Below, piece by piece: positions 33,048 through 62,380 of a stretch of DNA of 64,000 bases. Source of the DNA: Escherichia phage VEc33. How positions within the stretch are numbered: position 1 is the stretch's first letter; each line of letters starts with the position of its first letter. The DNA lies in sequence record NC_048818.1; one strand, written 5' to 3'. The notes beneath the pieces are model-generated. The model was not told the origin of the DNA and made no database searches. It was given only the letters and a program-made list of their open reading frames with translations. Both the position numbers and the translations under genes were made by a program.

Positions 33048-33125
33048 TGGTCTCCGTGGGAGGATTTGAACCCCCGACCCTATCGCCCCAAACGAAACGC
33101 TCTGGCCAAACTGAGCTACACGGAG
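33048..33125 (-). tRNA. tRNA-Pro (anticodon TGG)
   Basis: Anticodon loop TTTGGGG; D stem GCTC/GAGC; discriminator A. Confidence 0.55.
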
Positions 33126-33619: not shown

Positions 33620-33741
33620 GTTAGATTGTTTTCAGTGCAAGAGTCCGAGTCTTGGACACGACCGCTTCGCAAGTACATAGGCAGCTTATCATGAGTCAGC
33701 ACTTCCGAATTGCTAGCTCCGTGTTCTGCACTGAAATTTTA

Positions 33742-34089
33742 TTAGTTTAACCGTAAAGTATTATCTACTTCACCATTAATTGTTCGGCATTCCTCTGGGA
33801 ATGCCGGGGTGGCTTTGTATTCCCACCACTCAGCACCATCATATTCCCCACGTTCTAGCCAAGTTCCATCGGCAAACCATACATTACCATAAAGTAATTG
33901 TCCACCGTATCCAGAATCATATTCAAAGTCTAGGTTATTAAGAAAATCCTCAATATCTTCTTCTGTATAACCTAAAGGTAATACCCAAACTTTTTTATCC
34001 CCATAATACCCAAATTCTATTTTAATACACTTAACTTCAGAATTAGTATTTTTTAAGGCAAGTAACAACTCTTCTTTGGCATTACGCAT
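33742..34089 (-). CDS. hypothetical protein (115 aa)
   Basis: ORF; Trp/Tyr/Gly-rich. Confidence 0.45.
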   Translation of the reverse strand: MRNAKEELLLALKNTNSEVKCIKIEFGYYGDKKVWVLPLGYTEEDIEDFLNNLDFEYDSGYGGQLLYGNVWFADGTWLERGEYDGAEWWEYKATPAFPEECRTINGEVDNTLRLN

Positions 34090-34114
34090 AGTATATTCTC
34101 ATACTGAATTAATT

Positions 34115-34191
34115 TGGCGCGACCGATGGGATTTGAACCCACATTCTCTCCCGTGACAGGGGAGTACCATTACCAAGCCAGCCCCGGTCGC
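34115..34191 (-). tRNA. tRNA-Asp (anticodon GTC)
   Basis: Anticodon stem CTCCC/GGGAG, loop CTGTCAC; discriminator G. Confidence 0.6.
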
Positions 34192-34200
34192 ATAATTTAT

Positions 34201-34386
34201 TTACTCAGCTTTGAGTTTTTCAATAGCTGCATTAAGTTCTTTAAGAAACTCTTTTCGTACATTAAGACGATTGAGACTTACTAGTATATCATGTTTAAGT
34301 TCTTCGATATATTTCTTCTCAACTTCAATATTGTTGATAGTGCTATCACGATGAACTTCTAGCTGCGCAATCACATTCTTGGACAT
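34201..34386 (-). CDS. hypothetical small protein (61 aa)
   Basis: ORF. Confidence 0.35.
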   Translation of the reverse strand: MSKNVIAQLEVHRDSTINNIEVEKKYIEELKHDILVSLNRLNVRKEFLKELNAAIEKLKAE

Positions 34387-34488
34387 ACTTATTTCCTCAG
34401 TTATTAATGAAAATGGTATCTGTGGCTGAATTCGATGTCAGCAATGATAGCTGGTTGGCTACCGGTTTACTTAACTCTACACAGAATT

Positions 34489-34566
34489 TGGCGGTTCCTG
34501 CTGGATTCGAACCAGCAACCCTCAACTTAACAAGATGCCGCTCTAACCAATTAGAGCTAAGGAACC
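34489..34566 (-). tRNA. tRNA-Asn (anticodon GTT), tentative
   Basis: Acceptor GGTTCCT/AGGAACC, T-arm GCTGG-TTCGAAT-CCAGC, loop TTGTTAA; anticodon stem poorly paired. Confidence 0.4.
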
Positions 34567-35061
34567 ATATAAGTCAGAACTAGAGTTAATACGTTCTAGA
34601 TATTTACTAAGATCTCTAGAATTTATACTAAACCACTCATGCTCTTTTAAATCTTTGAAATACCGGTGAATTAGTTTTTCACCTTTTCGTTTGTCAAACC
34701 AAAAAGACCAGTGCTCTAACTTATAATCCCTATAAGGGGAATAAGTCTGATATTGAGCTAATCTCTCTTTTGGATTTTGACTCATACCTATTTTATACTG
34801 ATTTTTCCATGCAGGATTACTAATACAGTATACAAAACCTTCAGAAATAGGAAGTTTATTTTCCTGCTTAAACTTTATAAAGGAAAGTGCAGCAAGTTTT
34901 CTCGAATACATAGTATTCGTATTCTTTTTGGTATTACCATTGGTTCCTGAAAGATTTATATATTCTTCCATAAATCTTTGGATTAGTTCTGCGGTTATAT
35001 AGAAGGGCTCATTAGTAACAACGCCTTTCTTTACCAAACTATCAAAAACTTTTGTATGCAC
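34543..35061 (-). CDS. T5orf172-domain (GIY-YIG-like) endonuclease (172 aa)
   Basis: GFVYCISNPAWKNQYKIGMS ... EHEWF core; 172 aa, the namesake size of the T5orf172 domain; 3' end overlaps the tRNA. Confidence 0.65.
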   Translation of the reverse strand: MHTKVFDSLVKKGVVTNEPFYITAELIQRFMEEYINLSGTNGNTKKNTNTMYSRKLAALSFIKFKQENKLPISEGFVYCISNPAWKNQYKIGMSQNPKERLAQYQTYSPYRDYKLEHWSFWFDKRKGEKLIHRYFKDLKEHEWFSINSRDLSKYLERINSSSDLYGSLALIG

Positions 35062-35082
35062 TACTTCTTTCCTTTAGCAAAT

Positions 35083-35158
35083 TGGACGACCGCATGAGAT
35101 TTGAACTCACATAAAAAGGATTTGCAATCCTTCGCCTAAGCCATTCAGCCAACGGTCG
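35083..35158 (-). tRNA. tRNA-Cys (anticodon GCA)
   Basis: Anticodon stem AAGGA/TCCTT, loop TTGCAAA; discriminator U. Confidence 0.6.
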
Positions 35159-35235
35159 GTTTATCTTGTTCTGTCATGTTGCTTCTCCAGTTCAATTTAT
35201 GTAATTATTATACAGAACTTTTGGAAACTAAGCAA

Positions 35236-35514
35236 CTACATTTTTAAGAATTTGATGCCTTTCTTTTTCTTCTTATATTTCCACGTTAATGGATTCTGCC
35301 GATTGTGAACGCTTGAGATCTTCGTCTCGTCAAAGTTCTTCAATATCATGTAATCACAAGATAATTGTTCTAATGGAATGTGATCACCGTCAAAAGCATA
35401 TACATAAGGTTGTTGACTAGCACGATAATGATAGACTTTGTTAATTCTACGTTTTAGCGACTTATCAGCGCAGTAAATAAAGAAGTTTTCAGGATGCATC
35501 AGCATCTCCTTCAA
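35236..35514 (-). CDS. hypothetical protein (92 aa)
   Basis: ORF. Confidence 0.4.
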   Translation of the reverse strand: MKEMLMHPENFFIYCADKSLKRRINKVYHYRASQQPYVYAFDGDHIPLEQLSCDYMILKNFDETKISSVHNRQNPLTWKYKKKKKGIKFLKM

Positions 35515-35516
35515 TT

Positions 35517-35591
35517 TGGTGCACCCTGTTCGTATCGAACGAACCTCTCAAGCTCTTCAGGCAAGCGCTAATCCATCTCAGCTAAAGGTGC
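35517..35591 (-). tRNA. tRNA-Phe (anticodon GAA), tentative
   Basis: T-arm GTTCG-TTCGATA-CGAAC; anticodon loop CTGAAGA; weak anticodon stem. Confidence 0.45.
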
Positions 35592-35597
35592 AAATTT

Positions 35598-35674
35598 TGG
35601 CAAACCTACTAGGACTCGAACCTAGACCGTACGGTTTTAGAGACCGACATGCTGTCCAGTAACACTCTAGGAAT
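35598..35674 (-). tRNA. Trp-like tRNA with anticodon CTA (reads UAG), candidate amber suppressor
   Basis: T-arm CTAGG-TTCGAGT-CCTAG and discriminator G as in E. coli tRNA-Trp; anticodon arm TCGGT-CTCTAAA-ACCGT differs from the Trp loop CTCCAAA by one base; acceptor stem has two U-U mismatches. Confidence 0.4.
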
Positions 35675-35682
35675 GCAGAAAT

Positions 35683-35759
35683 TGGCGTCCTGTGCGGGGA
35701 TCGAACCCGCAAATCCTACCTTGAAAGGGTAGTGACTTTACCAGTTTGTCTAACAGGAC
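35683..35759 (-). tRNA. tRNA-Glu (anticodon TTC)
   Basis: Acceptor GTCCTGT/ACAGGAC perfect; anticodon stem CTACC/GGTAG, loop CTTTCAA. Confidence 0.65.
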
Positions 35760-35766
35760 TTAAATT

Positions 35767-35857
35767 TGGTGTTGGATGATGGAGTCGAACCACCCGAGAC
35801 CCTTCCGAGTCGGCAGATTTACAGTCTGCTTCGCTACCTCTACGATACTAATCCAAC
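35767..35857 (-). tRNA. tRNA-Tyr (anticodon GTA), class II
   Basis: 91 nt; acceptor GTTGGAT/ATCCAAC; anticodon stem GCAGA/TCTGC, loop CTGTAAA. Confidence 0.6.
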
Positions 35858-35985
35858 ATATTTAAAAGTATTCAAATACTAGTTTAAACACTTTTAAATA
35901 TGTTTCCGAATTAGATAACTATTATATCAAGTTTTAAGGCACTGAGCAAGTCAAATTTTAAAGAACTTGCTCAGTGCTGTATTAG

Positions 35986-36261
35986 TTAGTCGAACTTAGG
36001 AGTGACAGTTAAGGAGAACGGAAGTTCGAAAACTTCTTCGCCCTCATTACTAACGGTAACTACACGACCTTTAAGTTCAGACATTAAAATATCAATATCA
36101 GCTTTTGCATCTGGAGCCATGCCAGCTTCAATACATTTAGCTTTAACTTCCGGTAAAAGCTCTACGTTATAGAGATAGAGCCACTCAATCTCACCTTCCC
36201 AGTCTTCCCAGGATTTGCAGATTGCACTTTCAATACCAGTTGCTACAACACGATTTTGCAT
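35986..36261 (-). CDS. hypothetical acidic protein (91 aa)
   Basis: ORF with promoter motif upstream. Confidence 0.45.
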   Translation of the reverse strand: MQNRVVATGIESAICKSWEDWEGEIEWLYLYNVELLPEVKAKCIEAGMAPDAKADIDILMSELKGRVVTVSNEGEEVFELPFSLTVTPKFD

Positions 36262-36351
36262 TAATTAACTCCTCCATCAATTTATATAATTATTATATCA
36301 GAAATTTAAGGCAAAAGGCAAGTACATTTTTAAAAATTCTGTTTGGAGGAG

Positions 36352-36558
36352 CTAAACTCCAGATTCTTCAGCTAAGTCTAGGCTAATAAGAGTTATAGCC
36401 ATAATTGCTGCACCGTGTTCTTTTTCTCCGGTGTTTTTAGCAGAGTCTATAATAGTCTTAATCTGTTCGTAATAGCCCTTTACTTCTTGTTCAATACCTG
36501 CCTCGGCTATCATGCCTTTAGTCATGATTCGTTGCATAGTAATTTCACGGTTAGCCAT
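36352..36558 (-). CDS. hypothetical small protein (68 aa)
   Basis: ORF. Confidence 0.35.
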   Translation of the reverse strand: MANREITMQRIMTKGMIAEAGIEQEVKGYYEQIKTIIDSAKNTGEKEHGAAIMAITLISLDLAEESGV

Positions 36559-36733
36559 GATGTTTCTCCAATTTCATCTTTAATAGTCTACAAATAAAAT
36601 CAATGTCTTCATCCGTGCCTAGATCTCTATCTTCAAGAGTTGCCTTGAAGTTTTTAGTCAATTCCATGAGGATAACTTCTCTAGAACGACGTGTTGGCGG
36701 AGGTGGATGTCTATACATCTTATTTCCTTAATT

Positions 36734-36810
36734 TGGTAGGGGTGGTGGGATTCGAACCCACAAAACCTGAATTTTAAGTCCAGTACCTATGCCAATTCGA
36801 TTACACCCCC
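36734..36810 (-). tRNA. tRNA with anticodon TAA (Leu-type anticodon on a class-I body)
   Basis: T-arm GTGGG-TTCGAAT-CCCAC; anticodon stem CTGGA/TTCAG, loop CTTAAAA; discriminator A; 5-nt variable loop. Confidence 0.5.
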
Positions 36811-36817
36811 GTGTAGT

Positions 36818-37006
36818 TTAGTCAATTACTTTTGAGGCTTCAAGGTAGTCGATATAGTGTATGTTTTCTACCGTAATCATATAATCTGCCACTTTATCCA
36901 TAGCTTGGGCTTCAGAGGTAGCTCTGGCTAACCTATATCCTTTTTTATATTCATCCTGGTATTCTCTATCTTGGATAAACACAACATAAACTATATATAG
37001 ATCCAT
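36818..37006 (-). CDS. hypothetical small protein (62 aa)
   Basis: ORF. Confidence 0.35.
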   Translation of the reverse strand: MDLYIVYVVFIQDREYQDEYKKGYRLARATSEAQAMDKVADYMITVENIHYIDYLEASKVID

Positions 37007-37025
37007 TTGTTACCTCTATTTAATT

Positions 37026-37103
37026 TGGTGGCTCCCCGAGGATTCGAACCTACGTACCTTCCGGTTATGAGCCGGGTGCTCATACCATATGAGCTTGAGA
37101 ACC
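37026..37103 (-). tRNA. tRNA-Met/fMet (anticodon CAT)
   Basis: Anticodon loop CTCATAA with a G-C-rich stem; third CAT tRNA in the cluster. Confidence 0.45.
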
Positions 37104-37109
37104 AAAATC

Positions 37110-37198
37110 TGGCGGAAGAAGTGGGAATCGAATCCACAAGGCTATATTTCAAACCGACAGATTAGCAATCTGCTGCAATACCGTTATGCTATTCTTCC
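37110..37198 (-). tRNA. tRNA-Ser (anticodon GCT), class II
   Basis: 89 nt; acceptor GGAAGAA/TTCTTCC; anticodon stem GCAGA/TCTGT, loop TTGCTAA; discriminator G. Confidence 0.55.
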
Positions 37199-37219
37199 GA
37201 ATTTATAAGATATATTATA

Positions 37220-37738
37220 TTAGAAATTTAGCTTCATAGCAAGAAAATTTTTCAAGTTTTCGGTAGACATCTCATCTACGTCTACAGGAGAAACAAAGCC
37301 GTTTAATTTTCTAGCAAATTTTTCACCCGCAGGATCATTATCCCCGACAGCTACCAATTTAAAAGGTAATAATTTCAGTTGCTTTAATAACGCTTTTCCT
37401 GGAGAAGAACCCAACATTGCTAGGGCTGGATAACCAGCGTTATGTAACGCAACTGCCTTAAATACAGATTCAGCGATCAATACTACTTTTTCATCTCCAT
37501 TGAGAGTTTCTAGTCCCCATACACACTGGGTAGTAGAATAAGTAAAGTATTTAGCTTCAAAAGGGCACTTACCATGACCTTTTGGAGCAGAAGGATTATA
37601 AGTTTGGTAGCCCCTCAACATCCCAGAGAAATCATATAACGGGACTGTTAGCCATCCTTCCGGACTTAACCAGCAATGATATTTTTCTGTATCAAATCCT
37701 CTAGATAAGAGGTGCTGTGTTAGCTCATCAACATTCAT
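37220..37738 (-). CDS. Toprim-domain-like protein (172 aa)
   Basis: VVLIAESVFKAV ... LVAVGDNDPAGEKFA resembles the Toprim E...DxD signature. Confidence 0.45.
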   Translation of the reverse strand: MNVDELTQHLLSRGFDTEKYHCWLSPEGWLTVPLYDFSGMLRGYQTYNPSAPKGHGKCPFEAKYFTYSTTQCVWGLETLNGDEKVVLIAESVFKAVALHNAGYPALAMLGSSPGKALLKQLKLLPFKLVAVGDNDPAGEKFARKLNGFVSPVDVDEMSTENLKNFLAMKLNF

Positions 37739-37915
37739 ACCTGGTTCCTCTCTCTCAAATTTATAGATATATTATACAGAGAATTTAGCATTCAAGCAAT
37801 CAAATTTTTTAACTTTTTAGAGGAAAATCATAGGGCACTTAAGGGTAGCAGATAAGTGGTGAGGACCAAAATTTGTGACCCCACTAAAAATCCGGGGGCA
37901 ATTTTTAAAGACCCC

Positions 37916-37944
37916 TTGACATTTTCGCTGGGGTAGTGTAAAGT
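37916..37944 (+). promoter_or_regulatory. sigma70-type promoter (TTGACA-N17-TAAAGT) for the rightward three-gene module
   Basis: Consensus -35 TTGACA at 37916-37921. Confidence 0.5.
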
Positions 37945-38006
37945 ATATGTTATGGATGAGTGATCAAAGAGACACACATTTTCTATATACTAGGAGGTGT
38001 CAAAAA

Positions 38007-38978
38007 ATGACAGAAGAAGTAGCTAAGAGTCCTGAAACCGTCGCTAGCGTAGCAGCAGAACTGCATCGTCACGAGGAATCAGATAAGAAAAAGTGGGAGA
38101 AGGTCAGAGCCTACGAAGAAAAACATCGTGTTCACGATGAAGAAGATGATGATGAACATTGTCATAAATATGGAAAACATAAAATGCAAGAACCAGTAAA
38201 CGTATTCACTAGTGGCTTCCCTGGCCTACTGGGTGGTTACCCAGCAAACGCAAGTGCTTTCGGTGGTGAAGGTATGGGACTATTCGGAGCTATCCTAATC
38301 GGTGCTCTATTAACAGGCGGATTTGGTGGTTTTGGTGGTTTTGGCCGTGGTGCTGGCGTTGCCGCTGAAGGGACTGCTGTGGACGCGATCCTTTCTAACC
38401 AAGATACTGCAAGTATTCTAGCTGCAATCAATACTACTCGTACAGAAGCTAACCAGGGCACTGGGGCTGTTCTAAGCGCAGTAAACGGTGTGGGAGCTGC
38501 TCAAGCTGCTAGCACTCAGCAAGTTCTGACTACTATCTACGGTACAGGTGCTAATCTGTCAAACCAGATCTGTGCTGAAACTCGTAACGTTATTCAGGGT
38601 CAGTTCGATCTTTCTCGTCAGATGGATCAATCTTTCGCTGCTAACCAGATCGCACGTGCTCAAGATAAATTTGACTCTGCTCAGATTGCTTTCCAGCAGT
38701 CTATTCAGACCAATAACCAGTTTGCCGCTGTTCAGGCTCAGATGTGTGCTAACCAGAATGCTATCGAACGTCAGCTTGCCGAATGTTGCTGTGAGCTTCA
38801 GACTGCAATCGCTGGTGTAACTACTGCACGTATCCAGGACGAACTGAATGAATGCCGTCTGCGTGAAGCAATCGCTGCAGGTAGCGGTGCTAACGGTCAG
38901 GTAATTAATCAAATCGCTGTAAGTCTTGGTGCTATCACTCAGACTCTGGCTGGTCTGCAGGCTAAACTGCCGGCTTAA
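38007..38978 (+). CDS. Gly-zipper membrane protein with acidic His-rich N-terminus and Ala/Gln-rich C-terminal domain (about 323 aa from the RBS-supported ATG)
   Basis: AGGAGG RBS before ATG 38007; hydrophobic GLFGAILIGALLTGGFGGFGGFG segment; CCCE and other Cys near the C-terminus; no recognisable enzymatic motif. Confidence 0.55.
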   Translation: MTEEVAKSPETVASVAAELHRHEESDKKKWEKVRAYEEKHRVHDEEDDDEHCHKYGKHKMQEPVNVFTSGFPGLLGGYPANASAFGGEGMGLFGAILIGALLTGGFGGFGGFGRGAGVAAEGTAVDAILSNQDTASILAAINTTRTEANQGTGAVLSAVNGVGAAQAASTQQVLTTIYGTGANLSNQICAETRNVIQGQFDLSRQMDQSFAANQIARAQDKFDSAQIAFQQSIQTNNQFAAVQAQMCANQNAIERQLAECCCELQTAIAGVTTARIQDELNECRLREAIAAGSGANGQVINQIAVSLGAITQTLAGLQAKLPA

Positions 38979-38999
38979 TATTAAGGGGAGGAGCCCATT

Positions 39000-39416
39000 A
39001 TGAGTAAATATGGTTTTGTAAATAACGGACTTAATCAAAGTATGGGCTCCCAGCAGCCCGTTCCGGGACTGGATAACCCTTACCTACAACAGTTGCAACA
39101 GCGTTTAGCAGAAGCGCAACAGATGCAGCAACAACTCCAGCAAAACCCTGGAAGTGTGAGTCCTATGCAAATGATGCAGCAAATGAGCGGGCAGTCGCAA
39201 ATGCCTCAACAAATGCAGCAACAGGTGCCTCAGCAGCAAGTTCAGCAGCAAACCCAACAACCGCAGGTTTCTGCGGAAGGACAGGCAGTACTAGCCCTTT
39301 TCGAAGACTTCGCAAAGACAGAGGATGGGAAGCAGCTTGTATCACTTATGGGTAAGTTTAATAGCTTCTGCCAAAGCCAAGTTGCAAAAGCTCAAAATGG
39401 TGGTAATAACTCCTAA
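39000..39416 (+). CDS. Gln-rich low-complexity protein (138 aa)
   Basis: GGAGGAG RBS; poly-Q/M stretches. Confidence 0.5.
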   Translation: MSKYGFVNNGLNQSMGSQQPVPGLDNPYLQQLQQRLAEAQQMQQQLQQNPGSVSPMQMMQQMSGQSQMPQQMQQQVPQQQVQQQTQQPQVSAEGQAVLALFEDFAKTEDGKQLVSLMGKFNSFCQSQVAKAQNGGNNS

Positions 39417-39425
39417 GGAGGAATT

Positions 39426-39620
39426 ATGTGTTGCAGAAAATCTGTTTCGTGCTGCCCAATGCCTGTAGCACGTTGTTGCTCTCCAGCAATGTTTACGCAA
39501 ATACCGGCGTTCAATCCGTTTGCCTTTAAGCCTACTCTTATCCTGCCCCCTAGAGTAGATTTTCAGTCAAGATTGGCCTCCCGTATGGGTGGTTGCTGTA
39601 ACAAGAGTATATGGTTCTAA
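39426..39620 (+). CDS. Cys-rich small protein with four CC doublets (64 aa)
   Basis: AGGAGG RBS; MCC..SCC..RCC..GCC pattern. Confidence 0.45.
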   Translation: MCCRKSVSCCPMPVARCCSPAMFTQIPAFNPFAFKPTLILPPRVDFQSRLASRMGGCCNKSIWF

Positions 39621-39633
39621 AGAACCAAACAAT

Positions 39634-39668
39634 AAAGCCCCTAGTCGAAAGACTTAGGGGCTTTTTCT
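39634..39668 (+). terminator. Rho-independent terminator, one of two back-to-back hairpins
   Basis: AAAGCCCCTAGTCGAAAGACTTAGGGGCTTTTTC. Confidence 0.6.
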
Positions 39669-39684
39669 TTTGCCTTAAATACAG

Positions 39685-39721
39685 AAAAGCCCGCGCTCTC
39701 GGAGGAAACGCGGGCTTGGTT
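39685..39721 (-). terminator. Rho-independent terminator for the convergent leftward gene
   Basis: AAAAGCCCGCGCTCTCGGAGGAAACGCGGGCTTGGTT hairpin. Confidence 0.5.
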
Positions 39722-39740
39722 CGAAGATTACGTGTAACTA

Positions 39741-40688
39741 TTACTTGTTACGCATATCCATGATCATTTGACCATCGTAACCAGTACCTACTACAGTCTG
39801 AGGCACACCACCTTGATATTTCTGAGCACGAATCATATCAACTTCCAGTTGTTTCCAACGAATCATCTCAGGAGTAATGGTACGTTGCAGTGCGGCGTTA
39901 GCTTCAGCTTCTTTCTTAGCTGCGTACAGTTTAGCATCTGCGTCACGTTCATTAGCGATAGCTTGGTTGTTGCGAGCTTCACGATCTGCTTCTGCTTGTT
40001 TAACTTTTTGCTGTGCTTCCTGTTCAACACGAGCTAATTCAGCTTTAGCAGCATTAGCCTGTTCTTCACGAACTTTGGTATTCTGTACCTGTTCCATGAT
40101 TACCGGTGGCAAAGTAATATCCTGAAGGAATACCTGCTTAACTGTGTAACCATATGGGCGTGCGTACTCTTCAACTTCCTGTTGAATTGCAGTTTGCAAT
40201 TGAGCCTGAATTTTAGCATCAAACAAATCTTGTGCTTTAGGTACAGACTTACCAAACTCACGAATAGTAGACAGTAATTTTTCAGTTACATATTTGTCTA
40301 ACGCTTGATCCTGAGTACCTGCATTAATACGGTTAATCGGTGCCTTAGAACCATCAAACTGCAACATAACAGTCAGATCAACAGTGGATTTAAACTTATC
40401 CTGACTAGGAACCTGAAGTTTATCTAATTTTACAGCAATATCTTTAGTACTAAAAGTATCGAAAGAAGCAAAAGGATTTACAATATGAAAGCCGGGTAAT
40501 ACTGGATTAGGGTCTACTTTACCCAGGAATGTTTGAGTTTTAACCGTACCATCAGAAACAATAGTATATGAATTAAAAGCTAGAATTAAACCTGCTAAAC
40601 CAACTACAGCACCAATCCCCCAACGTTTAATAGTACGAATTACTTTCTGCTCAGAAGTTAGTTCTTTCATATTTTTAGTATTAAACAT
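39741..40688 (-). CDS. SPFH/band-7 (prohibitin/HflC-like) membrane protein (315 aa)
   Basis: N-terminal TM helix, SPFH-like core, Ala/Glu/Gln-rich coiled coil. Confidence 0.6.
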   Translation of the reverse strand: MFNTKNMKELTSEQKVIRTIKRWGIGAVVGLAGLILAFNSYTIVSDGTVKTQTFLGKVDPNPVLPGFHIVNPFASFDTFSTKDIAVKLDKLQVPSQDKFKSTVDLTVMLQFDGSKAPINRINAGTQDQALDKYVTEKLLSTIREFGKSVPKAQDLFDAKIQAQLQTAIQQEVEEYARPYGYTVKQVFLQDITLPPVIMEQVQNTKVREEQANAAKAELARVEQEAQQKVKQAEADREARNNQAIANERDADAKLYAAKKEAEANAALQRTITPEMIRWKQLEVDMIRAQKYQGGVPQTVVGTGYDGQMIMDMRNK

Positions 40689-40722
40689 ATATTTCCTTTG
40701 TTTTAGTTACAGTTAATAAAAT

Positions 40723-40797
40723 TGGCCGAGGTGACAGGATTCGAACCTGCATAAAGGAATTTAGAAGACTCCTGCCTATCCCTTAGACTACACCCCG
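40723..40797 (-). tRNA. tRNA-Arg (anticodon TCT)
   Basis: T-arm GCAGG-TTCGAAT-CCTGT; anticodon stem GGAGT/ATTCC, loop CTTCTAA. Confidence 0.55.
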
Positions 40798-56477: not shown

Positions 56478-56640
56478 TCCAGAAAACATGCTTATTGAGC
56501 AATGGAACTTTGGTTATAATGCTGGTGTAGCTACTTGTATTGCTAGATTGGATACGCTTATTAAGCAAGAAAAGGTACGCCCTGAGGAAGCAATTTTACT
56601 CCGAAATATTATCGAAGGATTTAAGCAAGGAATCGTATAG
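56446..56640 (+). CDS. hypothetical protein (about 64 aa from the internal Met)
   Basis: GGAGGAG RBS before ATG 56446. Confidence 0.4.
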   Translation: MDFLNQNLKSNPENMLIEQWNFGYNAGVATCIARLDTLIKQEKVRPEEAILLRNIIEGFKQGIV

Positions 56641-57476
56641 TGCGTAGATTAATTATTATTAGCGGTGCAGGTTTGAGTGTTGAAAGTGGTGTACGAGCTT
56701 TTCGTACTGATACTGCTAGTGGTAAAGCATTGTGGGATGATTATGATCTAGAAGAAGTATGTAATATTCATGCCTTTCGTGGTAATTTTTATCATAAAAC
56801 CCATATGTTTTACAACAAACGTCGTGAAGAGCTAAAAACTGTTGAACCCAATCTTGCACATTTGCGTATTGGTGAATGGTATAAACAATATCCAGGTCAA
56901 GTAGTAAACTTGACTACCAACGTTGATGACCTTATTGAGCGTGCTGGCGTTCCACATAGTGACATTCTGCACATTCACGGATATTTAAAAGAGGTTGTTG
57001 TAGCTGATAGCTACAATAGTAGCAATAAACGGATTATTGATGTAGGGTATAATTCTATTGATCCAGATGATTATAAATGGGTTAAACCTAATGTAATCTT
57101 CTTTGGAGAACATGCTCCTGCATACGCAGAAATGTATAATGTTTTTGATGGTATTACCAGTCAAGATATGATCATTGTGGTTGGTTGCTCTAATCAAGTA
57201 ATTAACTTCTACTGGGAATTATTTCCTGTTCTTAATTTGACTGCTGCCAAACTAATGGTAGTTAACTACTATGATAGTGCCATAGCAGCAGAGCCAGGCT
57301 ATCAAGGTATGACTCGTAGTGAGATGTACCAACTGGAAGATCGTGGTATTCCTTACTGGAGTAATGGTGCGGTAGATGCTTTTAGTGACCCTGATTTTAT
57401 TGCTCGTGTGGAAGCCCATTTAGAGGGTAGACCTTATGTGCCGGAGAGAAGGGGAAACAGATATGTCCATAGTTAA
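56640..57476 (+). CDS. Sir2-family (sirtuin-like) NAD-dependent protein (278 aa, GTG start)
   Basis: GAGLSVESGVRAFR N-terminal nucleotide-binding motif typical of sirtuins. Confidence 0.6.
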   Translation: MRRLIIISGAGLSVESGVRAFRTDTASGKALWDDYDLEEVCNIHAFRGNFYHKTHMFYNKRREELKTVEPNLAHLRIGEWYKQYPGQVVNLTTNVDDLIERAGVPHSDILHIHGYLKEVVVADSYNSSNKRIIDVGYNSIDPDDYKWVKPNVIFFGEHAPAYAEMYNVFDGITSQDMIIVVGCSNQVINFYWELFPVLNLTAAKLMVVNYYDSAIAAEPGYQGMTRSEMYQLEDRGIPYWSNGAVDAFSDPDFIARVEAHLEGRPYVPERRGNRYVHS

Positions 57477-57645
57477 ATCTGTTTATACACATCCCGATGA
57501 TATATTTGTATGGGCGGACGGTAGTTGGTGCTATCGCTGTGAGCTATGGGAAATGGACTATAAATCCGATGATTATGGTGTCATATATGTTGATACGGTT
57601 GAGTATGATACGTTCTTAGAAAGGGACAAAAATGGAAATAAGTAA
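57463..57645 (+). CDS. hypothetical small protein (60 aa)
   Basis: Internal Met with RBS; overlaps neighbours. Confidence 0.35.
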   Translation: MSIVKSVYTHPDDIFVWADGSWCYRCELWEMDYKSDDYGVIYVDTVEYDTFLERDKNGNK

Positions 57646-58138
57646 TACTCCAATTATTTTTCTAGATATTGATGGGGTGCTCAACTCGAGCATCTCCCAT
57701 CACCATGCACCTGATGATGAAAAGATTTTCTTTGGAAGTGACTGGGTTTTTAAACCGCTTCTCAAGGCTTTTCAGGATTTTATTCGTCCTTCTCCAATAA
57801 TGATTGTTGGGGTATCTTCATGGTTCTCTGTCAGGAATGAGATGGAGAACGTTCAGATTATGACCGGATTAGATCTTATCGATCGTTTTCTTGGTACAAC
57901 GGATTTTACTGGTGGTGGATTATCTAGGGGTAATTCTGTTCTTCGCTTCGTTGAAAAGCATAAGCTCAAACATTGGTGTGTGCTGGATGATGCTGGTGCT
58001 ATGATGTATCAGTATCCAACGGTTATAGTCAATGGTAGAACTGGAATAAATCTTCAAGATTTAAGAGCTGTTAGCTATATGTTAGAATTTAGTCCAGATC
58101 TTGAAATGTGTAAAGCCCTGCAACAATTTAAGGTGTAA
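57632..58138 (+). CDS. HAD-like hydrolase (168 aa)
   Basis: N-terminal FLDIDGVLN (DxDGxL) motif and downstream VLDDAG. Confidence 0.5.
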   Translation: MEISNTPIIFLDIDGVLNSSISHHHAPDDEKIFFGSDWVFKPLLKAFQDFIRPSPIMIVGVSSWFSVRNEMENVQIMTGLDLIDRFLGTTDFTGGGLSRGNSVLRFVEKHKLKHWCVLDDAGAMMYQYPTVIVNGRTGINLQDLRAVSYMLEFSPDLEMCKALQQFKV

Positions 58139-58140
58139 AT

Positions 58141-58569
58141 ATGTTCAATAATGTATTCTCTAAAGAGGCTAACCCGATATTGGTTAATTTTTGGCGTACT
58201 CTTCCAGCCAACCTGTACAATGAGGCTATTAATGCTTTGAAAATATGGTGTGAGAATAATGAAATCTCCTTTGCTTTTAAAGGTGAGATTGAAGAGGCTC
58301 CCTGTATTGGTTTAATTGTGCAGGTGGAGGATGGTCTTGAAGAGATTGTCGGCTGGAAAGAGTTGGATGAAATGGGCTTGGTTTTTGCGTTAAACTATAA
58401 GCTGTTTATGCCCAATAAACACCGTATTGTTGTTAACTATAAAACCAATGAATCTCCTGGTTTTCAAGTTAATGAACGGTATGGTTGGTCTTACTCACCA
58501 GAAGAAGTAAATGATGGTATCCAAAAACTTCGTCGTTTTGGTTATCAAATTCCGGGTTTAACCGCCTAA
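58141..58569 (+). CDS. hypothetical protein, paralog A (142 aa)
   Basis: Shares PCIG(L/V), MGL(V/I)(F/V)ALN(Y/F)(K/S)LF and G(Y/I)(Q/Y)(I/V)PGL blocks with the next gene. Confidence 0.5.
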   Translation: MFNNVFSKEANPILVNFWRTLPANLYNEAINALKIWCENNEISFAFKGEIEEAPCIGLIVQVEDGLEEIVGWKELDEMGLVFALNYKLFMPNKHRIVVNYKTNESPGFQVNERYGWSYSPEEVNDGIQKLRRFGYQIPGLTA

Positions 58570-58578
58570 GGGGGCACA

Positions 58579-58971
58579 ATGGAACAAGTATATTGGCGTC
58601 AGATCGACCCTAGTTTGGTGAAGCGTGCAGAGAAGCTGCTACAACGTTGGTTGGGGGTAAGACAAGCCTCCTTCACTTTTCCGGAGCAGCAAATAGACGA
58701 TCCCTGTATTGGTGTTTTCCTATCAGGCTACGCTAGGGAATGGGAATTGGATTGGAATGAGTTGTCTGCTATGGGTTTAATTGTTGCCCTAAATTTCTCT
58801 TTGTTCCATACACGTGGTTTGGCTATATGTCGTGTGCCTGATGACGGTTGTTCGCCCCATCTTTTACAGGTGGAAGATGATATTTGGGAGTACACTCCAG
58901 ATATTCTCAAAGAAGCTAAAGAACAATTAAATCGTGCTGGGATTTATGTTCCAGGCCTGAACGATGAATGA
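58579..58971 (+). CDS. hypothetical protein, paralog B (130 aa)
   Basis: Tandem paralog of 58141..58569. Confidence 0.5.
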   Translation: MEQVYWRQIDPSLVKRAEKLLQRWLGVRQASFTFPEQQIDDPCIGVFLSGYAREWELDWNELSAMGLIVALNFSLFHTRGLAICRVPDDGCSPHLLQVEDDIWEYTPDILKEAKEQLNRAGIYVPGLNDE

Positions 58972-59063
58972 GTTTTATTAGCTGAACTCTGATTACCGAG
59001 CCATTTTGACTCGGTTTTCTCTATGTTCAAAGACACTGGTAGCAGCTCCTGGAAAAATCTACT

Positions 59064-59091
59064 TGCAGGATGCCCAAAATCTTGATATAAT
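59064..59091 (+). promoter_or_regulatory. sigma70 promoter with extended -10 (TTGCAG-N16-TGATATAAT)
   Basis: Hexamers with TG extension; followed by an about 500-nt ORF-poor leader. Confidence 0.5.
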
Positions 59092-59590
59092 ATTTATATT
59101 GAATTGAGAGACATTAGTAAAAATTGATTTTGCTAATTTTTCTTGTTTACAATCCGCGATACGGAACAGTTAGGCTGCCCCATTAAGGGTTGTTTTAACT
59201 GTTACGTGTTAGTTTTTAAACAAATAGTTAATAGAATACTTAGCGATCTGCGTCCCGTAGGAACCCTGGTAAGGCCTCGAAGCAACCTAGATAGAGGTGG
59301 TTGTGAAGTGAGACGGGAGGAGTGAAAAACTCCGAGACGTGATTCTGTAAGTTATATTGCATCTAGTATGAGCTAGTATATGAAGCATTAGGTGAGCAAA
59401 TCTGGCTTAGCGGCCATCCTCAAGGATTTGTGCGGTATAGCAAAGCAGCAGCGCAGCGTGAAAGTGGAAGTTGCCACCCCACTTCAGTATTTGCGATTAA
59501 TTTGTTGAGAAATTGACAGTAACAGTTGTTCTATTCTTTCTGAATAGTCCTAAAGAAAACTTATTTCATTTCCAACACAGGAGTATTGTT

Positions 59591-62380
59591 GTGTTTTCAA
59601 TCCTACAAGGTCATGCAGGATTTCATCGCGATTTAGCCACAGGCAATTGGCGAGAAGTTAAAGCAGAAGATTATCTTTTTGCTAAAAGATTTTCCTCAAA
59701 GCATCCTGAAGGTAAACCAGCTTCAATGCCCTTCAAGTTTGATGTAATTGACGAAGTTGATCCTCAAACCCTAGTAGAAATGCTTCCCATTATGAGACGT
59801 TTAACGTCTGACCCTCATATCGTTGCGGTACGAGGTCGATGTCTTGCACCTAAAAATAATGTGCGGCGTAAGAAGGGCAACTTTAATGTATCTAACCCAA
59901 GTCATATAATCGCAATGGATGTGGATGGTATTGTAGATACAGGTGGTTGTAACAAGTTTGATCTTGTTGGCATGGCTCGACATATTATTAGAATGTTAAA
60001 TAGTATTAGTGAGGATATGTTCCCTCTTGATGCAGGGTTTATCGCTCATGCATCATCTTCGGCTGGGCTAAAACCAGGTATCCGAATGCACTTAATACTA
60101 GAATCTAATGTTAAAGTAACTCAGGGTCAAATCAAATTCTTATTTACATCTATCAACGAAAGTAGTAGACAAAAGTATGGCTTTGATATTGCCGACCTAG
60201 CTTATTACTCTTCCGTACAGCTTCATTATTTTGCAGATCCGTTATTTATCGATGGTATAGTAGATCCGTTTAAAGCGGAGGGTGCTTCACGTCTGGTATT
60301 TGTTAAGGGTTCTAAAGTAAATTTACCCAATAATCTGGTTGACTATGAAACAACTAGAGGAGAGTTTAAAGAGGAGTTCTACTCCTTACTCGATCAAATT
60401 AAAGGTAAAAAGGCTGCCTCTGATAAAGTAGAAGAAACCATCAGCGAGTTAGAAGAAGCCGAGGATGGAGTGTATCTACGTATTATTCCTAAACTCTATC
60501 ACAGAGCTTTAGAGGATGGTGTTGATTTTGCATGGCTAGAAAAAGAAATCCGCCCAGCCTTATCAGAATATATTGCAACTAAAGATAATAGTCGTAATAT
60601 TCAAGACTACTTTAATAACGGTCGTAAACAGGCTCTGAAAGCGTTTGTTAATAATTCTAAACGCGATATACCTGATGTTTTAAAAGGTATTCCACTTAAA
60701 AAGCTAGAAACTAATTCTCTAGAAACTGATAACTTCTTGAAATTAAACACTGTACCACCAGAAGGTTATATGACTTTTGTAAAAGCAAGTCTAGGTACAG
60801 GTAAAACCACGGCAGTTGTGCGTTGGTTAGATTCAGGGGTTATTAAAGGTAATTTCTTAGCAATTACCAATACTAGAGCACTGGTATCTTCAAATGCTAA
60901 GAAATTTAGTGCAGGACAGTATGATAAGTCTGTAGATATGCTTAATTTTAAGCGTGGTGCTATTGACCGTATGTCCACAACTATTCACTCTTTGCATAAA
61001 TTCAAGAGTTTTATTGGTCAAATTGACGCAATCTTTATCGATGAATGTGATGCAGTAATGAATGACCTATTATTCGCCCCGGTTGTTAAGCAACGTCGAG
61101 AGTGTATTCAGGTTCTTCGGGATATTCTTGCAACTGCAAAAATCATTATATTATCTGATGGGGATATTAGTGCAGAAACAATTGAAGCATATGGTTCTTT
61201 GATTGAGTTTGATAAACCGGTTGCATTTTATAATCATCACCGTAAAATGCTATCAAAAGCTCATGCTTATGAGTTTCCTGATGAATCCAGTATTTGGGTT
61301 GCACTTCAGACTTCCCTGGAGATGGGTGAGAAATCTATCCTAGTATCTGACTGTGGGCCAGATGAACTGAATGAGAAGGGCATGGCGTTGCGTCGTAATA
61401 CGGGTGCGTTAGTTAAGGAAATCCATTCAAATTCTACGTCTGATGTGGATATTAGACGTATCCTGGATTACACAACTAATGAGTTAATTGACCAACAAAT
61501 TGATTGCTTATTATGTAGTCCATCCGTAACGAGTGGTGTTGACTTCAACTATTTTGATAACGTATTCGTTATTACTAGAACCTCAAACCAAGCGCCAAAC
61601 ATGCGTTTCCAAGCAATCAGGCGCGACCGTGGTGCTCAGAATATCTATTATTTTATTGATAAATCCACTAGTGGATTCTCCGCAGGTTCTGAACAATATA
61701 ATATTGATGAAGGTTGGCTGGAGTTAGCACAGCAATTATATGCACGTCGCAGAGAGCTGGAATCTAGGAACTATACTAGTACTTTACGTTATTACTTGCT
61801 TGATCAGGGTGCAACTATTGATATTTTCAGCGAAAGCTGGGGAACTATTGAAGGTGCTGGTAAAGAGTACACAGAAGAGCGAATCAAAGCTATACTGTAT
61901 TCAACTCCTGATTATTGTGCTCCACGCCATGCAGATGCGTATGAAGCTAAACTACTTCTTGTTCGCTATTATCATCTTGAGTCTATTAAAGATGTAACAG
62001 TTGAGCATGTTGAACAATATATCAAGGATAAACCTAATGATCGAGCGGCATTCTTCCATAAAATGCACGAGATGTTTTGGGAAGATATTAAGAAGTGTTC
62101 AAATGTCACTATCAAACCATTCATAGAAGCTCTGAAAGGTAAGAAGAAAGATTTCTTCCTTAAAACAGGTCAGAGTGCTAACCCAAAATATGCGAGAATG
62201 TATCTTGGTATGATGGGTATTGGTAAGGATATGAACACTGAAAATATTGTAGACTGGTACAGAACCTATTGTAAAATCGAGTGTATGCCAATCCCGTATA
62301 AGTTTATGACTGATGAGGAGAAACATATGCATGATGAAGCAATGGCAGAGCTAGGTGCTAGAAATGACAGTGAAGAATAA
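59591..62380 (+). CDS. P-loop NTPase/helicase-like replication protein (about 930 aa from the RBS-supported GTG; the six-frame ORF begins at 59513)
   Basis: Walker A ASLGTGKTT and Walker B IFIDECD; AGGAG RBS 8 nt before GTG 59591. Confidence 0.6.
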   Translation: MFSILQGHAGFHRDLATGNWREVKAEDYLFAKRFSSKHPEGKPASMPFKFDVIDEVDPQTLVEMLPIMRRLTSDPHIVAVRGRCLAPKNNVRRKKGNFNVSNPSHIIAMDVDGIVDTGGCNKFDLVGMARHIIRMLNSISEDMFPLDAGFIAHASSSAGLKPGIRMHLILESNVKVTQGQIKFLFTSINESSRQKYGFDIADLAYYSSVQLHYFADPLFIDGIVDPFKAEGASRLVFVKGSKVNLPNNLVDYETTRGEFKEEFYSLLDQIKGKKAASDKVEETISELEEAEDGVYLRIIPKLYHRALEDGVDFAWLEKEIRPALSEYIATKDNSRNIQDYFNNGRKQALKAFVNNSKRDIPDVLKGIPLKKLETNSLETDNFLKLNTVPPEGYMTFVKASLGTGKTTAVVRWLDSGVIKGNFLAITNTRALVSSNAKKFSAGQYDKSVDMLNFKRGAIDRMSTTIHSLHKFKSFIGQIDAIFIDECDAVMNDLLFAPVVKQRRECIQVLRDILATAKIIILSDGDISAETIEAYGSLIEFDKPVAFYNHHRKMLSKAHAYEFPDESSIWVALQTSLEMGEKSILVSDCGPDELNEKGMALRRNTGALVKEIHSNSTSDVDIRRILDYTTNELIDQQIDCLLCSPSVTSGVDFNYFDNVFVITRTSNQAPNMRFQAIRRDRGAQNIYYFIDKSTSGFSAGSEQYNIDEGWLELAQQLYARRRELESRNYTSTLRYYLLDQGATIDIFSESWGTIEGAGKEYTEERIKAILYSTPDYCAPRHADAYEAKLLLVRYYHLESIKDVTVEHVEQYIKDKPNDRAAFFHKMHEMFWEDIKKCSNVTIKPFIEALKGKKKDFFLKTGQSANPKYARMYLGMMGIGKDMNTENIVDWYRTYCKIECMPIPYKFMTDEEKHMHDEAMAELGARNDSEE

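What the first reader, a model, noticed from the sequence alone, without database searches (positions are those of the whole stretch)
59092..59590. Long, relatively GC-rich leader between a promoter and the helicase-like gene
About 500 nt separate the 59064-59091 promoter from the RBS/GTG of the 930-aa NTPase gene. The stretch is more GC-rich than its surroundings, has no convincing ORF (only a 60-codon frame without RBS) and contains multiple potential stems. That suggests a cis-regulatory RNA, attenuator or small RNA gene, possibly controlling a replication protein.
Basis: seen in the sequence. Interest (0 to 1): 0.45.

Follow-up and report, generated by a model that had tools for sequence, protein, structure and literature searches.

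The report
Conserved structured leader RNA, T5 helicase operon
The roughly 500 bases between a promoter and the replication-helicase gene D2 of this T5-like phage encode a large folded RNA, conserved in shape across several phage genera and matching no catalogued RNA family, whose function is still unknown.

Summary
The window is a T5-like phage (Tequintavirus). The region 59092-59590 is the non-coding leader of D2, the "replication origin binding" bipolar helicase gene. The promoter, the ~500-nt gap, the lack of a conserved ORF and the stems are all real. Only the inner 245 nt are GC-rich. The sequence is a conserved structured RNA on the + strand. In order it has a 5' hairpin (H1), a conserved hairpin (CE1), a 35-50-bp long-range duplex enclosing a ~250-nt multi-helix core, another hairpin (H3), and a hairpin holding the GUG start. 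Helices keep pairing through compensatory changes, both within two "allelic" core types (A and B) and across six lineages (T5 A/B, Sugarlandvirus, Hongcheonvirus, My1-like, Priunavirus). The first 100 nt are 98-100% identical between genera whose neighbouring genes are 70-85% identical. There was no Rfam match, and no description in the literature I could search. The best mechanism is inferred, not shown: a leader processed at the long duplex, probably by RNase III, which matures D2 mRNA and releases the core RNA. A trans-acting RNA or an origin-linked transcript remain open. A classical terminator-attenuator is not supported.

The parts
58996..59022 (+). Terminator-like hairpin (CCGAGCC ATTTT GACTCGG) plus T-run that ends the upstream operon
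   Evidence: Read directly from the sequence. Annotated as a terminator in phage Lindwurm. Hairpin-plus-T-run equivalents lie at the same place in KpGranit, DU_PP_V and My1-like.
59063..59091 (+). Sigma-70 promoter: -35 TTGCAG, 17-nt spacer, extended -10 TGaTATAAT. The transcription start is inferred near 59098.
   Evidence: Annotated 'putative promoter' in T5 AY692264 and S114. TTGCAA/TTGACA-N17-TATAAT-like promoters occur at the same position in all lineages. The start site itself is inferred, not mapped.
59106..59144 (+). H1, a 5'-proximal extended hairpin (GAGAGA/UUUCUU outer stem, AUUAGUAAAA/UUUUGCUAAU inner stem)
   Evidence: Independent local folds give the same two-part hairpin from different sequences in T5 A/B, KpGranit, DU_PP_V, My1-like and PSTCR5. 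Helix list.
59149..59193 (+). CE1, a hairpin with a conserved apical part GG-AA-CAGU-UAG-GCUG-CC (59163-59181) on a basal stem of variable sequence
   Evidence: The motif is invariant in T5 types A and B. It is present in KpGranit (AG...CU, a compensatory change), DU_PP_V and My1-like and absent from PSTCR5 and the Vibrio phages. It is unique in the window.
59196..59240 (+). 5' strand of the long-range closing duplex (LS), AT-rich
   Evidence: It pairs with 59486-59528. RNAduplex gives -37.1 kcal/mol and 47 bp against -17.2 +/- 3.2 for shuffles. Equivalent duplexes with different sequences occur in all six lineages.
59241..59485 (+). GC-rich multi-helix core. P_a 59248-53/59451-56; P_b 59254-58/59313-17; P_c' 59276-79/59309-12; P_c 59282-87/59299-304; P_e 59319-23/59329-33; P_g 59396-403/59424-31 enclosing the invariant hairpin GGCU-UAGC-GGCC at 59404-59415; P_h 59462-67/59479-84
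   Evidence: Compensatory changes within type A and within type B. The P_g topology is reproduced by nine independent local folds using six unrelated stem sequences. The covariance model built on P_g finds KpGranit at the right place. Equivalents of P_a, P_b, P_c', P_c and P_e in DU_PP_V, My1-like and K16 were read by me.
59486..59528 (+). 3' strand of the long-range closing duplex (LS)
   Evidence: The type A/B cassette boundary lies inside the duplex, so the basal 9-10 bp are shared and the rest differs.
59531..59547 (+). H3, a hairpin CUAUUC-UUUCU-GAAUAG directly 3' of the duplex
   Evidence: Invariant in T5 A/B. Hairpins with other sequences sit at the same position in KpGranit (CUAUC/GAUAG), DU_PP_V (CUUUCC/GGAAAG) and PSTCR5 (CCUG/CAGG).
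59574..59595 (+). Translation-initiation hairpin AACACAG/UUGUGUU, with the Shine-Dalgarno GGAG (59580-83) in the loop and the GUG start (59591-93) in the stem
   Evidence: helix 16: all cells paired; the C-to-U change in 7 of 22 sequences keeps a U.G pair.
59591..62380 (+). D2 gene (929 aa), annotated as the 'replication origin binding protein' and shown to be a bipolar helicase. It is the gene that the leader precedes in every lineage.
   Evidence: ORF. Pfam Herpes_ori_bp and PHROG 3712. T5 D2 biochemistry in PMC3632103.

Best explanation
The region is the ~490-nt structured leader RNA of the D2 replication-helicase operon. It is transcribed from the extended -10 promoter at 59063-59091 and is co-transcribed with D2, because no terminator and no second promoter lie in between. 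It folds into H1, CE1, a 35-50-bp long-range duplex that closes a ~250-nt multi-helix core, H3, and a hairpin holding the start codon. Inferred mechanism: host RNase III cuts the long duplex, as it cuts rRNA and T7 early-RNA processing stalks. That cut would separate the strongly conserved 5' module (H1 and CE1) from the message. It would release the core as a compact RNA of about 300 nt. It would leave D2 mRNA with a new 5' end capped by H3, which would set D2 mRNA stability and translation. Shown: the promoter, the absence of coding, the strand, the conserved architecture and the covariation. Inferred: the transcription start, RNase III cleavage, and any effect on D2 expression.
For: The element is conserved at the same place in 526 phage records. 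It is present upstream of D2 in five genus-level groups sharing anchor motifs. The + strand is favoured: alifold -132.6 against -102.1 kcal/mol for type A and -126.9 against -90.4 for type B, with 13 against 5 and 23 against 5 one-sided changes that keep a standard pair. Pair counts on single-sequence MFE structures: type A 97.4% of cells paired against 35-49% when slid, and 13 double-change cells against 3.4 shuffled (0/500). Type B has 10 pairs and 32 cells with double changes against 4.7 and 8.3 (0/500). The long duplex has z = -5 to -7 in four lineages and z = -2.1 and -2.6 in the other two, with a different sequence in each. P_g and its inner hairpin show the same topology in nine independent folds. 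No ORF is conserved. The 5' 100 nt are 98-100% identical where flanking genes are 70-85% identical. The start codon lies in a conserved hairpin.
Against: I found no transcript data, so the start site, processing and abundance are untested. A ~250-nt core with conserved loops is far more than a processing signal needs, which points to an added function. The long duplex is weaker in KpGranit and PSTCR5 (z = -2.6 and -2.1). Cross-lineage helix equivalence was assigned by me from anchor motifs, because sequence alignment cannot register type A with type B. D2 relatives at about 51% identity (L047, L048, L055) have only a ~350-nt AT-rich upstream region with no such RNA, so D2 expression does not universally need it.
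Confidence: 0.45

Rival explanations
1. The core enclosed by the long duplex is the real product: a trans-acting non-coding RNA, excised from the leader. It might scaffold a ribonucleoprotein, act as a decoy against a host defence or nuclease, or help assemble the replication machinery. Control of D2 would then be secondary.
For: The allelic unit (types A and B) coincides with the duplex-enclosed module. The two types occur in closely related phages between nearly identical flanks, a pattern seen at loci under diversifying selection. The size and helix count exceed what a processing site needs. Loop sequences such as the UAGC hairpin are invariant across five lineages.
Against: The RNA is always linked to D2 and never found elsewhere. 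No complementary target was found in the window or in E. coli genomes. There is no evidence that the fragment accumulates.
Confidence: 0.25
2. The region is, or belongs to, the primary replication origin. The promoter-driven transcript would prime or open the origin, as in ColE1 RNA II, T4 oriF/oriG R-loops or the T7 primary origin. Alternatively, the conserved hairpins form in single-stranded DNA as priming or loading signals for D2.
For: The region lies immediately upstream of the putative initiator helicase in every lineage. It sits near the middle of the ~120-kb genome, and from memory of Bourguignon et al. 1976 (not readable here) first-round T5 origins were seen internally. D2 is proposed as a replication initiator (PMC3632103). 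The duplex arms are AT-rich. More distant relatives carry tandem duplicated modules upstream of D2.
Against: Covariation with many G.U pairs on the + strand only indicates a folded single strand, not duplex-DNA recognition. The window has no iterons. Inverted-repeat arms ~280 bp apart cannot extrude as a cruciform. A strongly self-folded RNA is a poor R-loop former.
Confidence: 0.15
3. The region is a classical cis-regulatory switch, a riboswitch or terminator-attenuator, that senses a metabolite, tRNA or protein and gates transcription or translation of D2.
For: It has the leader position, conserved structure and a start codon in a hairpin. In T5-likes, CE1 can pair with the 5' strand of the long duplex instead of the 3' strand doing so (I5).
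Against: No Rfam riboswitch or leader matched. There is no G+C-rich terminator. Very few nucleotides are invariant across lineages, and two dissimilar core alleles coexist, unlike a ligand pocket. The alternative pairing is absent in DU_PP_V, My1-like and KpGranit, and in S114-type phages the substitution preserves the long duplex rather than the alternative.
Confidence: 0.07
4. The strongly conserved 5' module (H1 and CE1) acts on RNA polymerase in cis, like HK022 put or lambda nut RNAs, to make transcription of the long replication operon resistant to termination.
For: Two promoter-proximal stem-loops are 98-100% identical between genera. They sit at the head of a long same-strand operon.
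Against: No sequence or model similarity was found. This idea does not explain the core or the long duplex. CE1 is missing in PSTCR5 and the Vibrio phages. Downstream terminators were not examined.
Confidence: 0.05
5. The region is a non-functional spacer or the remnant of a mobile element with terminal inverted repeats.
For: Mobile insertions occur nearby: a homing endonuclease ORF and a 97-nt module. The core is bounded by inverted repeats.
Against: The inverted repeats covary rather than stay constant. Internal helices also covary. The element has been kept across genera at one locus, and only there.
Confidence: 0.03

Closest known systems
RNase III processing stalks (rRNA operon stems flanking 16S and 23S; T7 early-RNA sites R0.3-R1.3; lambda N leader)
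   Same: A long-range, largely perfect duplex of free sequence but conserved pairing brackets a structured RNA inside a longer transcript. Cleavage would release the enclosed RNA and re-define the 5' end of the downstream message.
   Different: Cleavage is not shown here. The enclosed RNA is neither rRNA nor tRNA. It exists as two dissimilar alleles in sister phages. An extra, strongly conserved 5' module precedes the stalk.
Large 'ornate' non-coding RNAs of phages and bacteria (GOLLD, ROOL, OLE, raiA)
   Same: Size of hundreds of nucleotides, many helices, association with phages, and unknown biochemical role. It was spotted by the same cue that has been used to find them, a long intergenic region with a GC-rich part.
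   Different: No covariance-model match to any of them. This RNA is fixed in the 5' leader of one particular gene rather than free-standing or next to tRNAs. Its sequence conservation is much lower, apart from the 5' module.
Origin transcripts: ColE1 RNA II, T4 ori(uvsY)/ori(34) R-loop RNAs, T7 primary-origin transcripts
   Same: A promoter fires into a non-coding region beside replication genes, and in ColE1 the RNA has a functional fold.
   Different: No origin has been mapped here. The fold is dominated by self-pairing. Transcription continues into the helicase gene.
Autoregulatory translational operators of phage replication genes (T4 gene 32 and gene 43 leaders)
   Same: Structured RNA at the 5' end of a replication-gene message, with the start region in a hairpin.
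   Different: Those operators are tens of nucleotides long and this element is about 490 nt. Binding by D2 or any other protein is untested.
HK022 put and lambda nut promoter-proximal RNA elements
   Same: Highly conserved stem-loops directly downstream of an early promoter.
   Different: No sequence or model similarity, and antitermination is untested. These elements have nothing like the core or the long duplex.

Membership tests
Any Rfam 15 family (riboswitches, leaders, 6S, tmRNA, RNase P, GOLLD, ROOL, OLE, raiA, group I/II introns, ribozymes) | Covariance-model match at or near the family threshold | tested here: not met
   cmscan with permissive filters on window 58500-60000 returned only four chance-level hits with E of 1.6 or more, and none covers the element. 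There were no hits at E of 1 or less on seven related loci, including T5, KpGranit, DU_PP_V, PSTCR5 and two Vibrio phages.
Intrinsic-terminator attenuator | A G+C-rich hairpin followed by a U-run between promoter and start codon | tested here: not met
   The scan found no terminator-like site inside 59092-59590. H1 is AU-rich, and its U-run is missing in KpGranit and PSTCR5.
Intrinsic-terminator attenuator | A conserved, mutually exclusive antiterminator pairing | tested here: not met
   The only alternative pairing (59161-59172 with 59196-59207) is absent in DU_PP_V, My1-like and KpGranit. In S114-type phages it is weakened by a change that keeps the long duplex.
Riboswitch | A set of invariant nucleotides forming a ligand pocket, shared by all members | tested here: not met
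   Across lineages the only invariant nucleotides in the P_g module alignment are the 8-mer CUUAGCGG. Types A and B share 22-64% identity in the core.
RNase III processing stalk | A double-stranded RNA of about 20 bp or more formed by sequences flanking the released RNA | tested here: met
   A predicted duplex of 30-54 bp with -26 to -43 kcal/mol is present in all six lineages. z = -5 to -7 in four of them and -2.1 and -2.6 in the other two.
RNase III processing stalk | Cleavage in vivo that depends on rnc | not testable with these tools
   No transcript-end data were found.
Transcription-primed replication origin (ColE1, T4 or T7 type) | A promoter directed into the origin region | tested here: met
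   Promoter at 59063-59091, conserved in all lineages.
Transcription-primed replication origin (ColE1, T4 or T7 type) | A mapped initiation site with a persistent RNA-DNA hybrid | not testable with these tools
   No mapping data could be read. Bourguignon 1976 is not held in the library.
Iteron-type origin | Several direct repeats that bind the initiator | tested here: not met
   Only four two-copy families of 9-14 nt lie in 58900-59700, which is chance level. Tandem duplicated modules exist only in the distant relatives L057 and L059.
Protein-coding gene (small ORF) | An open frame conserved among relatives | tested here: not met
   The 60-codon frame is cut to 50 codons in K16 and Gostya9 and is absent in type B. 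S114 has no ORF of 25 codons or more.

The most novel reading that the evidence does not exclude
T5-like phages, and possibly the wider Demerecviridae with leaders of 600-1000 nt, carry a previously unrecognised class of large structured non-coding RNA. It would be excised from the leader of the initiator-helicase operon and act in its own right, for example as an RNA component of replication initiation or helicase loading, or as a decoy against host defence. Interchangeable alleles would mark a specificity or arms-race determinant.
Probability: 0.25. Interest if true: 0.85.

Novelty: new variant of a known kind. Interest (0 to 1): 0.6.

Why it matters
T5 is a classical model phage, yet how its replication starts and how its replication genes are controlled is still unknown. 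A conserved, covarying RNA of about 490 nt sits directly in front of the proposed initiator helicase. That gives a concrete, testable handle on both questions through deletions, allele swaps, rnc hosts and origin mapping. Large bacterial and phage RNAs with complex folds are rare and have repeatedly revealed new biochemistry. This one is easy to study because it occurs in hundreds of sequenced, culturable E. coli, Salmonella and Klebsiella phages. It also comes in two natural alleles with identical flanks. It would be a candidate new Rfam family, and it would improve annotation, because many records place spurious "hypothetical proteins" in this region.

Tried and rejected
(1) Rfam matching was negative.

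(2) Small-ORF reading: the frame is not conserved.

(3) My one metagenome scan used AGAACAG, the Sugarlandvirus variant of the CE1 motif, instead of GGAACAG.

None carries the second anchor in a convincing context. The viral contigs pattern scan added no new lineage.

(5) A long-range helix between the H1 tail and the spacer before the Shine-Dalgarno sequence is no better than shuffles.

(6) CE1 pairing with the long-duplex 5' strand as a switch is not conserved outside T5-likes.

(7) Registering type A with type B by sequence alignment fails, leaving only 62% of duplex pairs and 48% of core pairs formed in type B rows. Cross-type evidence therefore rests on independent folds.

(8) A 51-position covariance model of the P_g module recovers T5 A/B and PSTCR5 strongly and KpGranit weakly (14.4 bits). 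It finds DU_PP_V only in part and finds neither My1-like nor the Vibrio phages. Homology of the Vibrio leaders is therefore unproven, although they fold with z = -2.3 to -4.3 and one group favours the + strand.

(9) There is no similarity to E. coli genomes.

(10) By eye only, with no statistics: loop-loop kissing between GGUGG and CCACC, anti-Shine-Dalgarno-like CCUCCUUA in DU_PP_V and My1-like, GGA-motif enrichment of the CsrB type, and resemblance to CRISPR repeats. None was consistent across lineages, so I dropped them.

(11) Iterons and cruciforms were rejected.

(12) The N-terminal 390 aa of D2 gave no informative match (PDB best hit E = 0.07; PHROGs only the family's own 'replication origin binding'). 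I did not model its structure.

Full report
**Identity of the window and the locus.** The stretch 58972-59592 matches 526 phage records, nearly all Demerecviridae infecting Escherichia, Salmonella or Klebsiella. The leader is identical to that of a 120,622-bp chee24-type Tequintavirus contig. The finding covers the gap between a DUF7415 gene (58579-58971) and a 929-aa gene starting at GTG 59591. That gene is T5 D2, annotated "replication origin binding protein". It matches Pfam Herpes_ori_bp and PHROG 3712. It has been characterised biochemically as a bipolar helicase and proposed as a replication initiator (PMC3632103). That paper never uses the words upstream, promoter or non-coding, so it does not discuss this region.

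**Checking the observation.**
- The promoter is real as a sequence feature: TTGCAG, 17 nt, then TGaTATAAT at 59063-59091.
- It is annotated as a putative promoter in two records. A promoter of the same design heads the non-coding region in every lineage I read.
- A terminator-like hairpin with a T-run at 58996-59022 closes the upstream operon.
- I saw no terminator-like site and no promoter-like site usable for D2 inside the leader. The only promoter-like match in the scan (59124-59153, 9 of 12) is at the rate expected by chance. D2 therefore appears to be expressed as part of this transcript (and reading).
- The distance from the -10 to the GTG is 499 nt.
- The statement about GC content needs correcting. 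The stretch as a whole has the window's mean GC (0.393 against 0.392). A 245-nt core has GC 0.494, in the top 1.3% of windows of that size. It lies between AT-rich arms with GC 0.22 and 0.30.
- The + strand folds better than shuffles, z = -3.2. The reverse complement is weaker, -111.6 against -140.9 kcal/mol.

**Anatomy.** Aligning eleven relatives gave an unexpected picture.
- The first ~110 nt after the promoter, and ~40 nt after position 59520, are almost invariant.
- The ~300 nt between them exist as two versions of equal length. Type A includes the window, Lindwurm, Gostya9 and Kenya-K16. Type B includes T5 itself and the Epseptimavirus phages.
- The two types share only short islands, notably GGCTTAGCGGCC.
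- Against an Epseptimavirus whose neighbouring genes are 70-85% identical, 59091-59190 is 98-100% identical and the core is 22-64% identical.
- About 162 of the 526 records match over 80% or more of the query and are type A-like. Most of the rest match only the flanks.

Both types fold the same way. The order of elements is:
- a 5' hairpin, H1 (59106-59144);
- a hairpin, CE1 (59149-59193);
- a long duplex between 59196-59240 and 59486-59528, closing the core;
- a hairpin, H3 (59531-59547);
- a spacer;
- a hairpin that puts the Shine-Dalgarno sequence in its loop and the GUG start in its stem (59574-59595).

The boundary between types A and B lies inside the long duplex, so the allelic unit is exactly the duplex-enclosed module.

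**Depth of conservation.** D2 relatives occur in 904 phage records. I fetched the upstream regions of six distant phages and read them as follows.
- A non-coding region of 600-710 nt, headed by a promoter, precedes D2 in Klebsiella phage KpGranit (Sugarlandvirus), Pectobacterium phage DU_PP_V (Hongcheonvirus), a My1-like contig and Providencia phage PSTCR5 (Priunavirus).
- About 1040 nt precede D2 in Vibrio phage JSF12, and 640 nt or more in Vibrio phage Bennett.
- The enterobacterial lineages share anchor motifs. The CE1 apex AACAGU-NNN-GCUGC is present in all except PSTCR5. CUUAGCGG is present in all five.
- The Vibrio and more distant leaders are purine-rich and fold with z = -2.3 to -4.3. 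One Vibrio group favours the + strand. I could not show that they are homologous to the T5 RNA.
- One group with about 51% D2 identity has only a ~350-nt AT-rich region with no such RNA. The element is therefore widespread in the family but not universal.

**Evidence that it is a folded RNA on the + strand.**
1. Within type A (13 distinct sequences) the alignment-based consensus has 7 compensatory pairs. Within type B (22 sequences) it has 13.
2. For a less circular test I took the MFE structure of one sequence and counted it across the others.
   - Type A: 97.4% of cells paired against 35-49% when partners are slid, and 13 double-change cells against 3.4 in shuffles (0/500).
   - Type B: 97.3% paired, and 10 pairs and 32 cells with changes on both sides against 4.7 and 8.3 (0/500). 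The slid controls give 0-4 pairs.
   - The sequences are closely related, so these shuffles overstate significance, as the tool itself warns.
3. Across lineages, where sequence alignment fails, independent folding of each lineage gives the same elements from unrelated sequences.
   - H1, CE1's basal stem and H3 recur.
   - The long duplex is 30-54 bp. Its z-score is -5 to -7 in T5 A, T5 B, DU_PP_V and My1-like, and -2.6 and -2.1 in KpGranit and PSTCR5.
   - P_g with its inner GGCU-UAGC-GGCC hairpin has one topology in nine folds. It uses six different stem sequences, and My1-like shows a G-C to A-U exchange in the inner hairpin.
   - By reading the sequences I also matched P_a (CUGCG/CGCAG, CUACA/UGUAG, CUGUG/CACAG), P_b (CCCG/CGGG, UUCG/CGAA), P_c' (CUCG/UGAG, UCCG/UGGA), P_c (GCAACC/GGUUGU, ACAAUC/GAUUGU, CGGCA/UGCCG) and P_e. 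These assignments are mine and are anchored by position.
4. Strand test: consensus energies favour + over - by about 30 kcal/mol in both types. One-sided changes that keep a standard pair are 13 against 5 and 23 against 5. Several helices carry runs of U.G pairs that would be A.C mismatches on the other strand (helix 13).
5. No ORF is conserved.

**What it is not.**
- No Rfam family matches, in the window or in seven related loci.
- It is not repeated elsewhere in the window, and it has no counterpart in E. coli genomes.
- The window has no iterons.
- A terminator-attenuator is not supported. There is no G+C-rich terminator. The U-run after H1 is not conserved. The single alternative pairing, CE1 with the 5' strand of the duplex, is specific to T5-likes and is not the pairing that substitutions preserve.
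- A riboswitch is unlikely, because so few nucleotides are invariant and two unlike alleles coexist.
- Seven full-text literature searches found no description of this RNA.

**How it most likely works.**
- Shown: a promoter-headed, non-coding element on the + strand, with conserved structure, invariably joined to D2.
- Inferred: the 35-50-bp duplex is long enough that E. coli RNase III would be expected to cut it. This rests on established knowledge of rRNA stalks and T7 early RNA sites. Cutting would detach the triphosphate 5' module (H1 and CE1). It would release the core with its ends paired. It would leave D2 mRNA beginning just before H3, with its GUG in a weak hairpin. I take this processing-and-maturation role as the best single explanation, at confidence 0.45.
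- The core is too elaborate to be only a processing signal. The near-invariant 5' module implies recognition by a conserved partner. A trans-acting excised RNA (0.25) or an origin-linked role (0.15) therefore remain serious alternatives, and they could coexist with processing.
- The origin idea is attractive because of the neighbouring initiator gene and the mid-genome position. However, the covariation pattern speaks for a folded single strand, not for duplex-DNA sites.

**Comparison with known systems and novelty.** In function it most resembles RNase III processing stalks enclosing a structured RNA. In size and complexity it resembles the large "ornate" phage-associated RNAs, but it is not a member of those families, because the model tests failed. 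Three features are distinctive:
- fixed linkage to the initiator-helicase gene;
- a 5' module conserved more strongly than the neighbouring genes;
- an allelic, duplex-bounded core.

I rate it a new variant of a known kind (structured leader or processed non-coding RNA) and a candidate new RNA family. Interest is 0.6. The structure is well supported, and finding it in so classical a phage is surprising, but its function is still inferred.

**Limits.**
- There are no transcript data.
- Only about 40 distinct sequences from roughly six lineages were in hand.
- Helix equivalence across lineages was partly assigned by hand.
- Several inner helices of the core (for example 59346-59376 and 59385-59396) are supported only within one type, or compete with P_g.

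Noticed in passing
L002:3165-3270 (Gostya9); also L005, L020, L037, L044. The insertion point corresponds to window 59135/59136.: An optional 97-98-nt module sits between H1 and CE1, flanked by a TTTTTCTT direct repeat. It occurs in both type A and type B backgrounds and only at this site. It folds into a hairpin (-22.5 kcal/mol) and has no Rfam match. It could be a small mobile or add-on RNA module.
   Followed up: partly
L006:1639-2091 (Kenya-K16) and L010:1160-1468 (bobsandoy), between the upstream terminator and the leader promoter (window ~59015-59062). L043 was also examined.: A homing endonuclease ORF with its own promoter copy is inserted just upstream of the leader promoter in some relatives. 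It is annotated 'putative homing endonuclease' in bobsandoy and is about 150 aa in Kenya-K16. L043 carries a tandem duplication of promoter plus H1. Homing-associated co-conversion might help shuffle the nearby A and B alleles.
   Followed up: partly
window 56640-58971: The operon ending just before the leader encodes a Sir2-family protein, a protein with the HAD domain of 'Swiss Army Knife' RNA-repair proteins (57632-58138), and two DUF7415 paralogues. This neighbourhood changes between genera while the link between the leader and D2 does not.
   Followed up: partly
window 59161-59172 and 59196-59207: The conserved CE1 sequence GGAACAGUUA is 92% complementary to the 5' strand of the long duplex, which in turn pairs with GUAACAGUU at 59519-59527. 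This gives three copies of one motif and a possible co-transcriptional folding intermediate. It is specific to T5-like phages.
   Followed up: yes
window 28924-40797, - strand: There are 23 tRNA genes. One, at 35598-35674, has a CUA anticodon and so would read amber codons. ARAGORN labels it 'Pyl'.
   Followed up: no
window 4675-4713 and 4957-4995: A 39-nt inverted repeat, 85% complementary with arms 243 nt apart, lies in the left-end region. It is the longest such pair in the window. It may relate to the repeat-rich injection-stop region described for T5 (my recollection; not examined).
   Followed up: no
L057:2230-2420 and 2610-2780; L059:2340-2620: Distant D2 relatives (about 33% identity) have tandemly duplicated structured modules of about 45-80 nt, with UUCG-type loops, in their D2 leaders. 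These could be repeated RNA domains or iteron-like DNA repeats.
   Followed up: no
Many phage records under the match: Several GenBank records annotate one to four 'hypothetical proteins' inside this non-coding leader. Others extend the D2 annotation upstream into the leader (S114), start it downstream of the consensus GTG (KPP2018), or split the gene in two (GSW6). These are probably annotation artefacts.
   Followed up: partly
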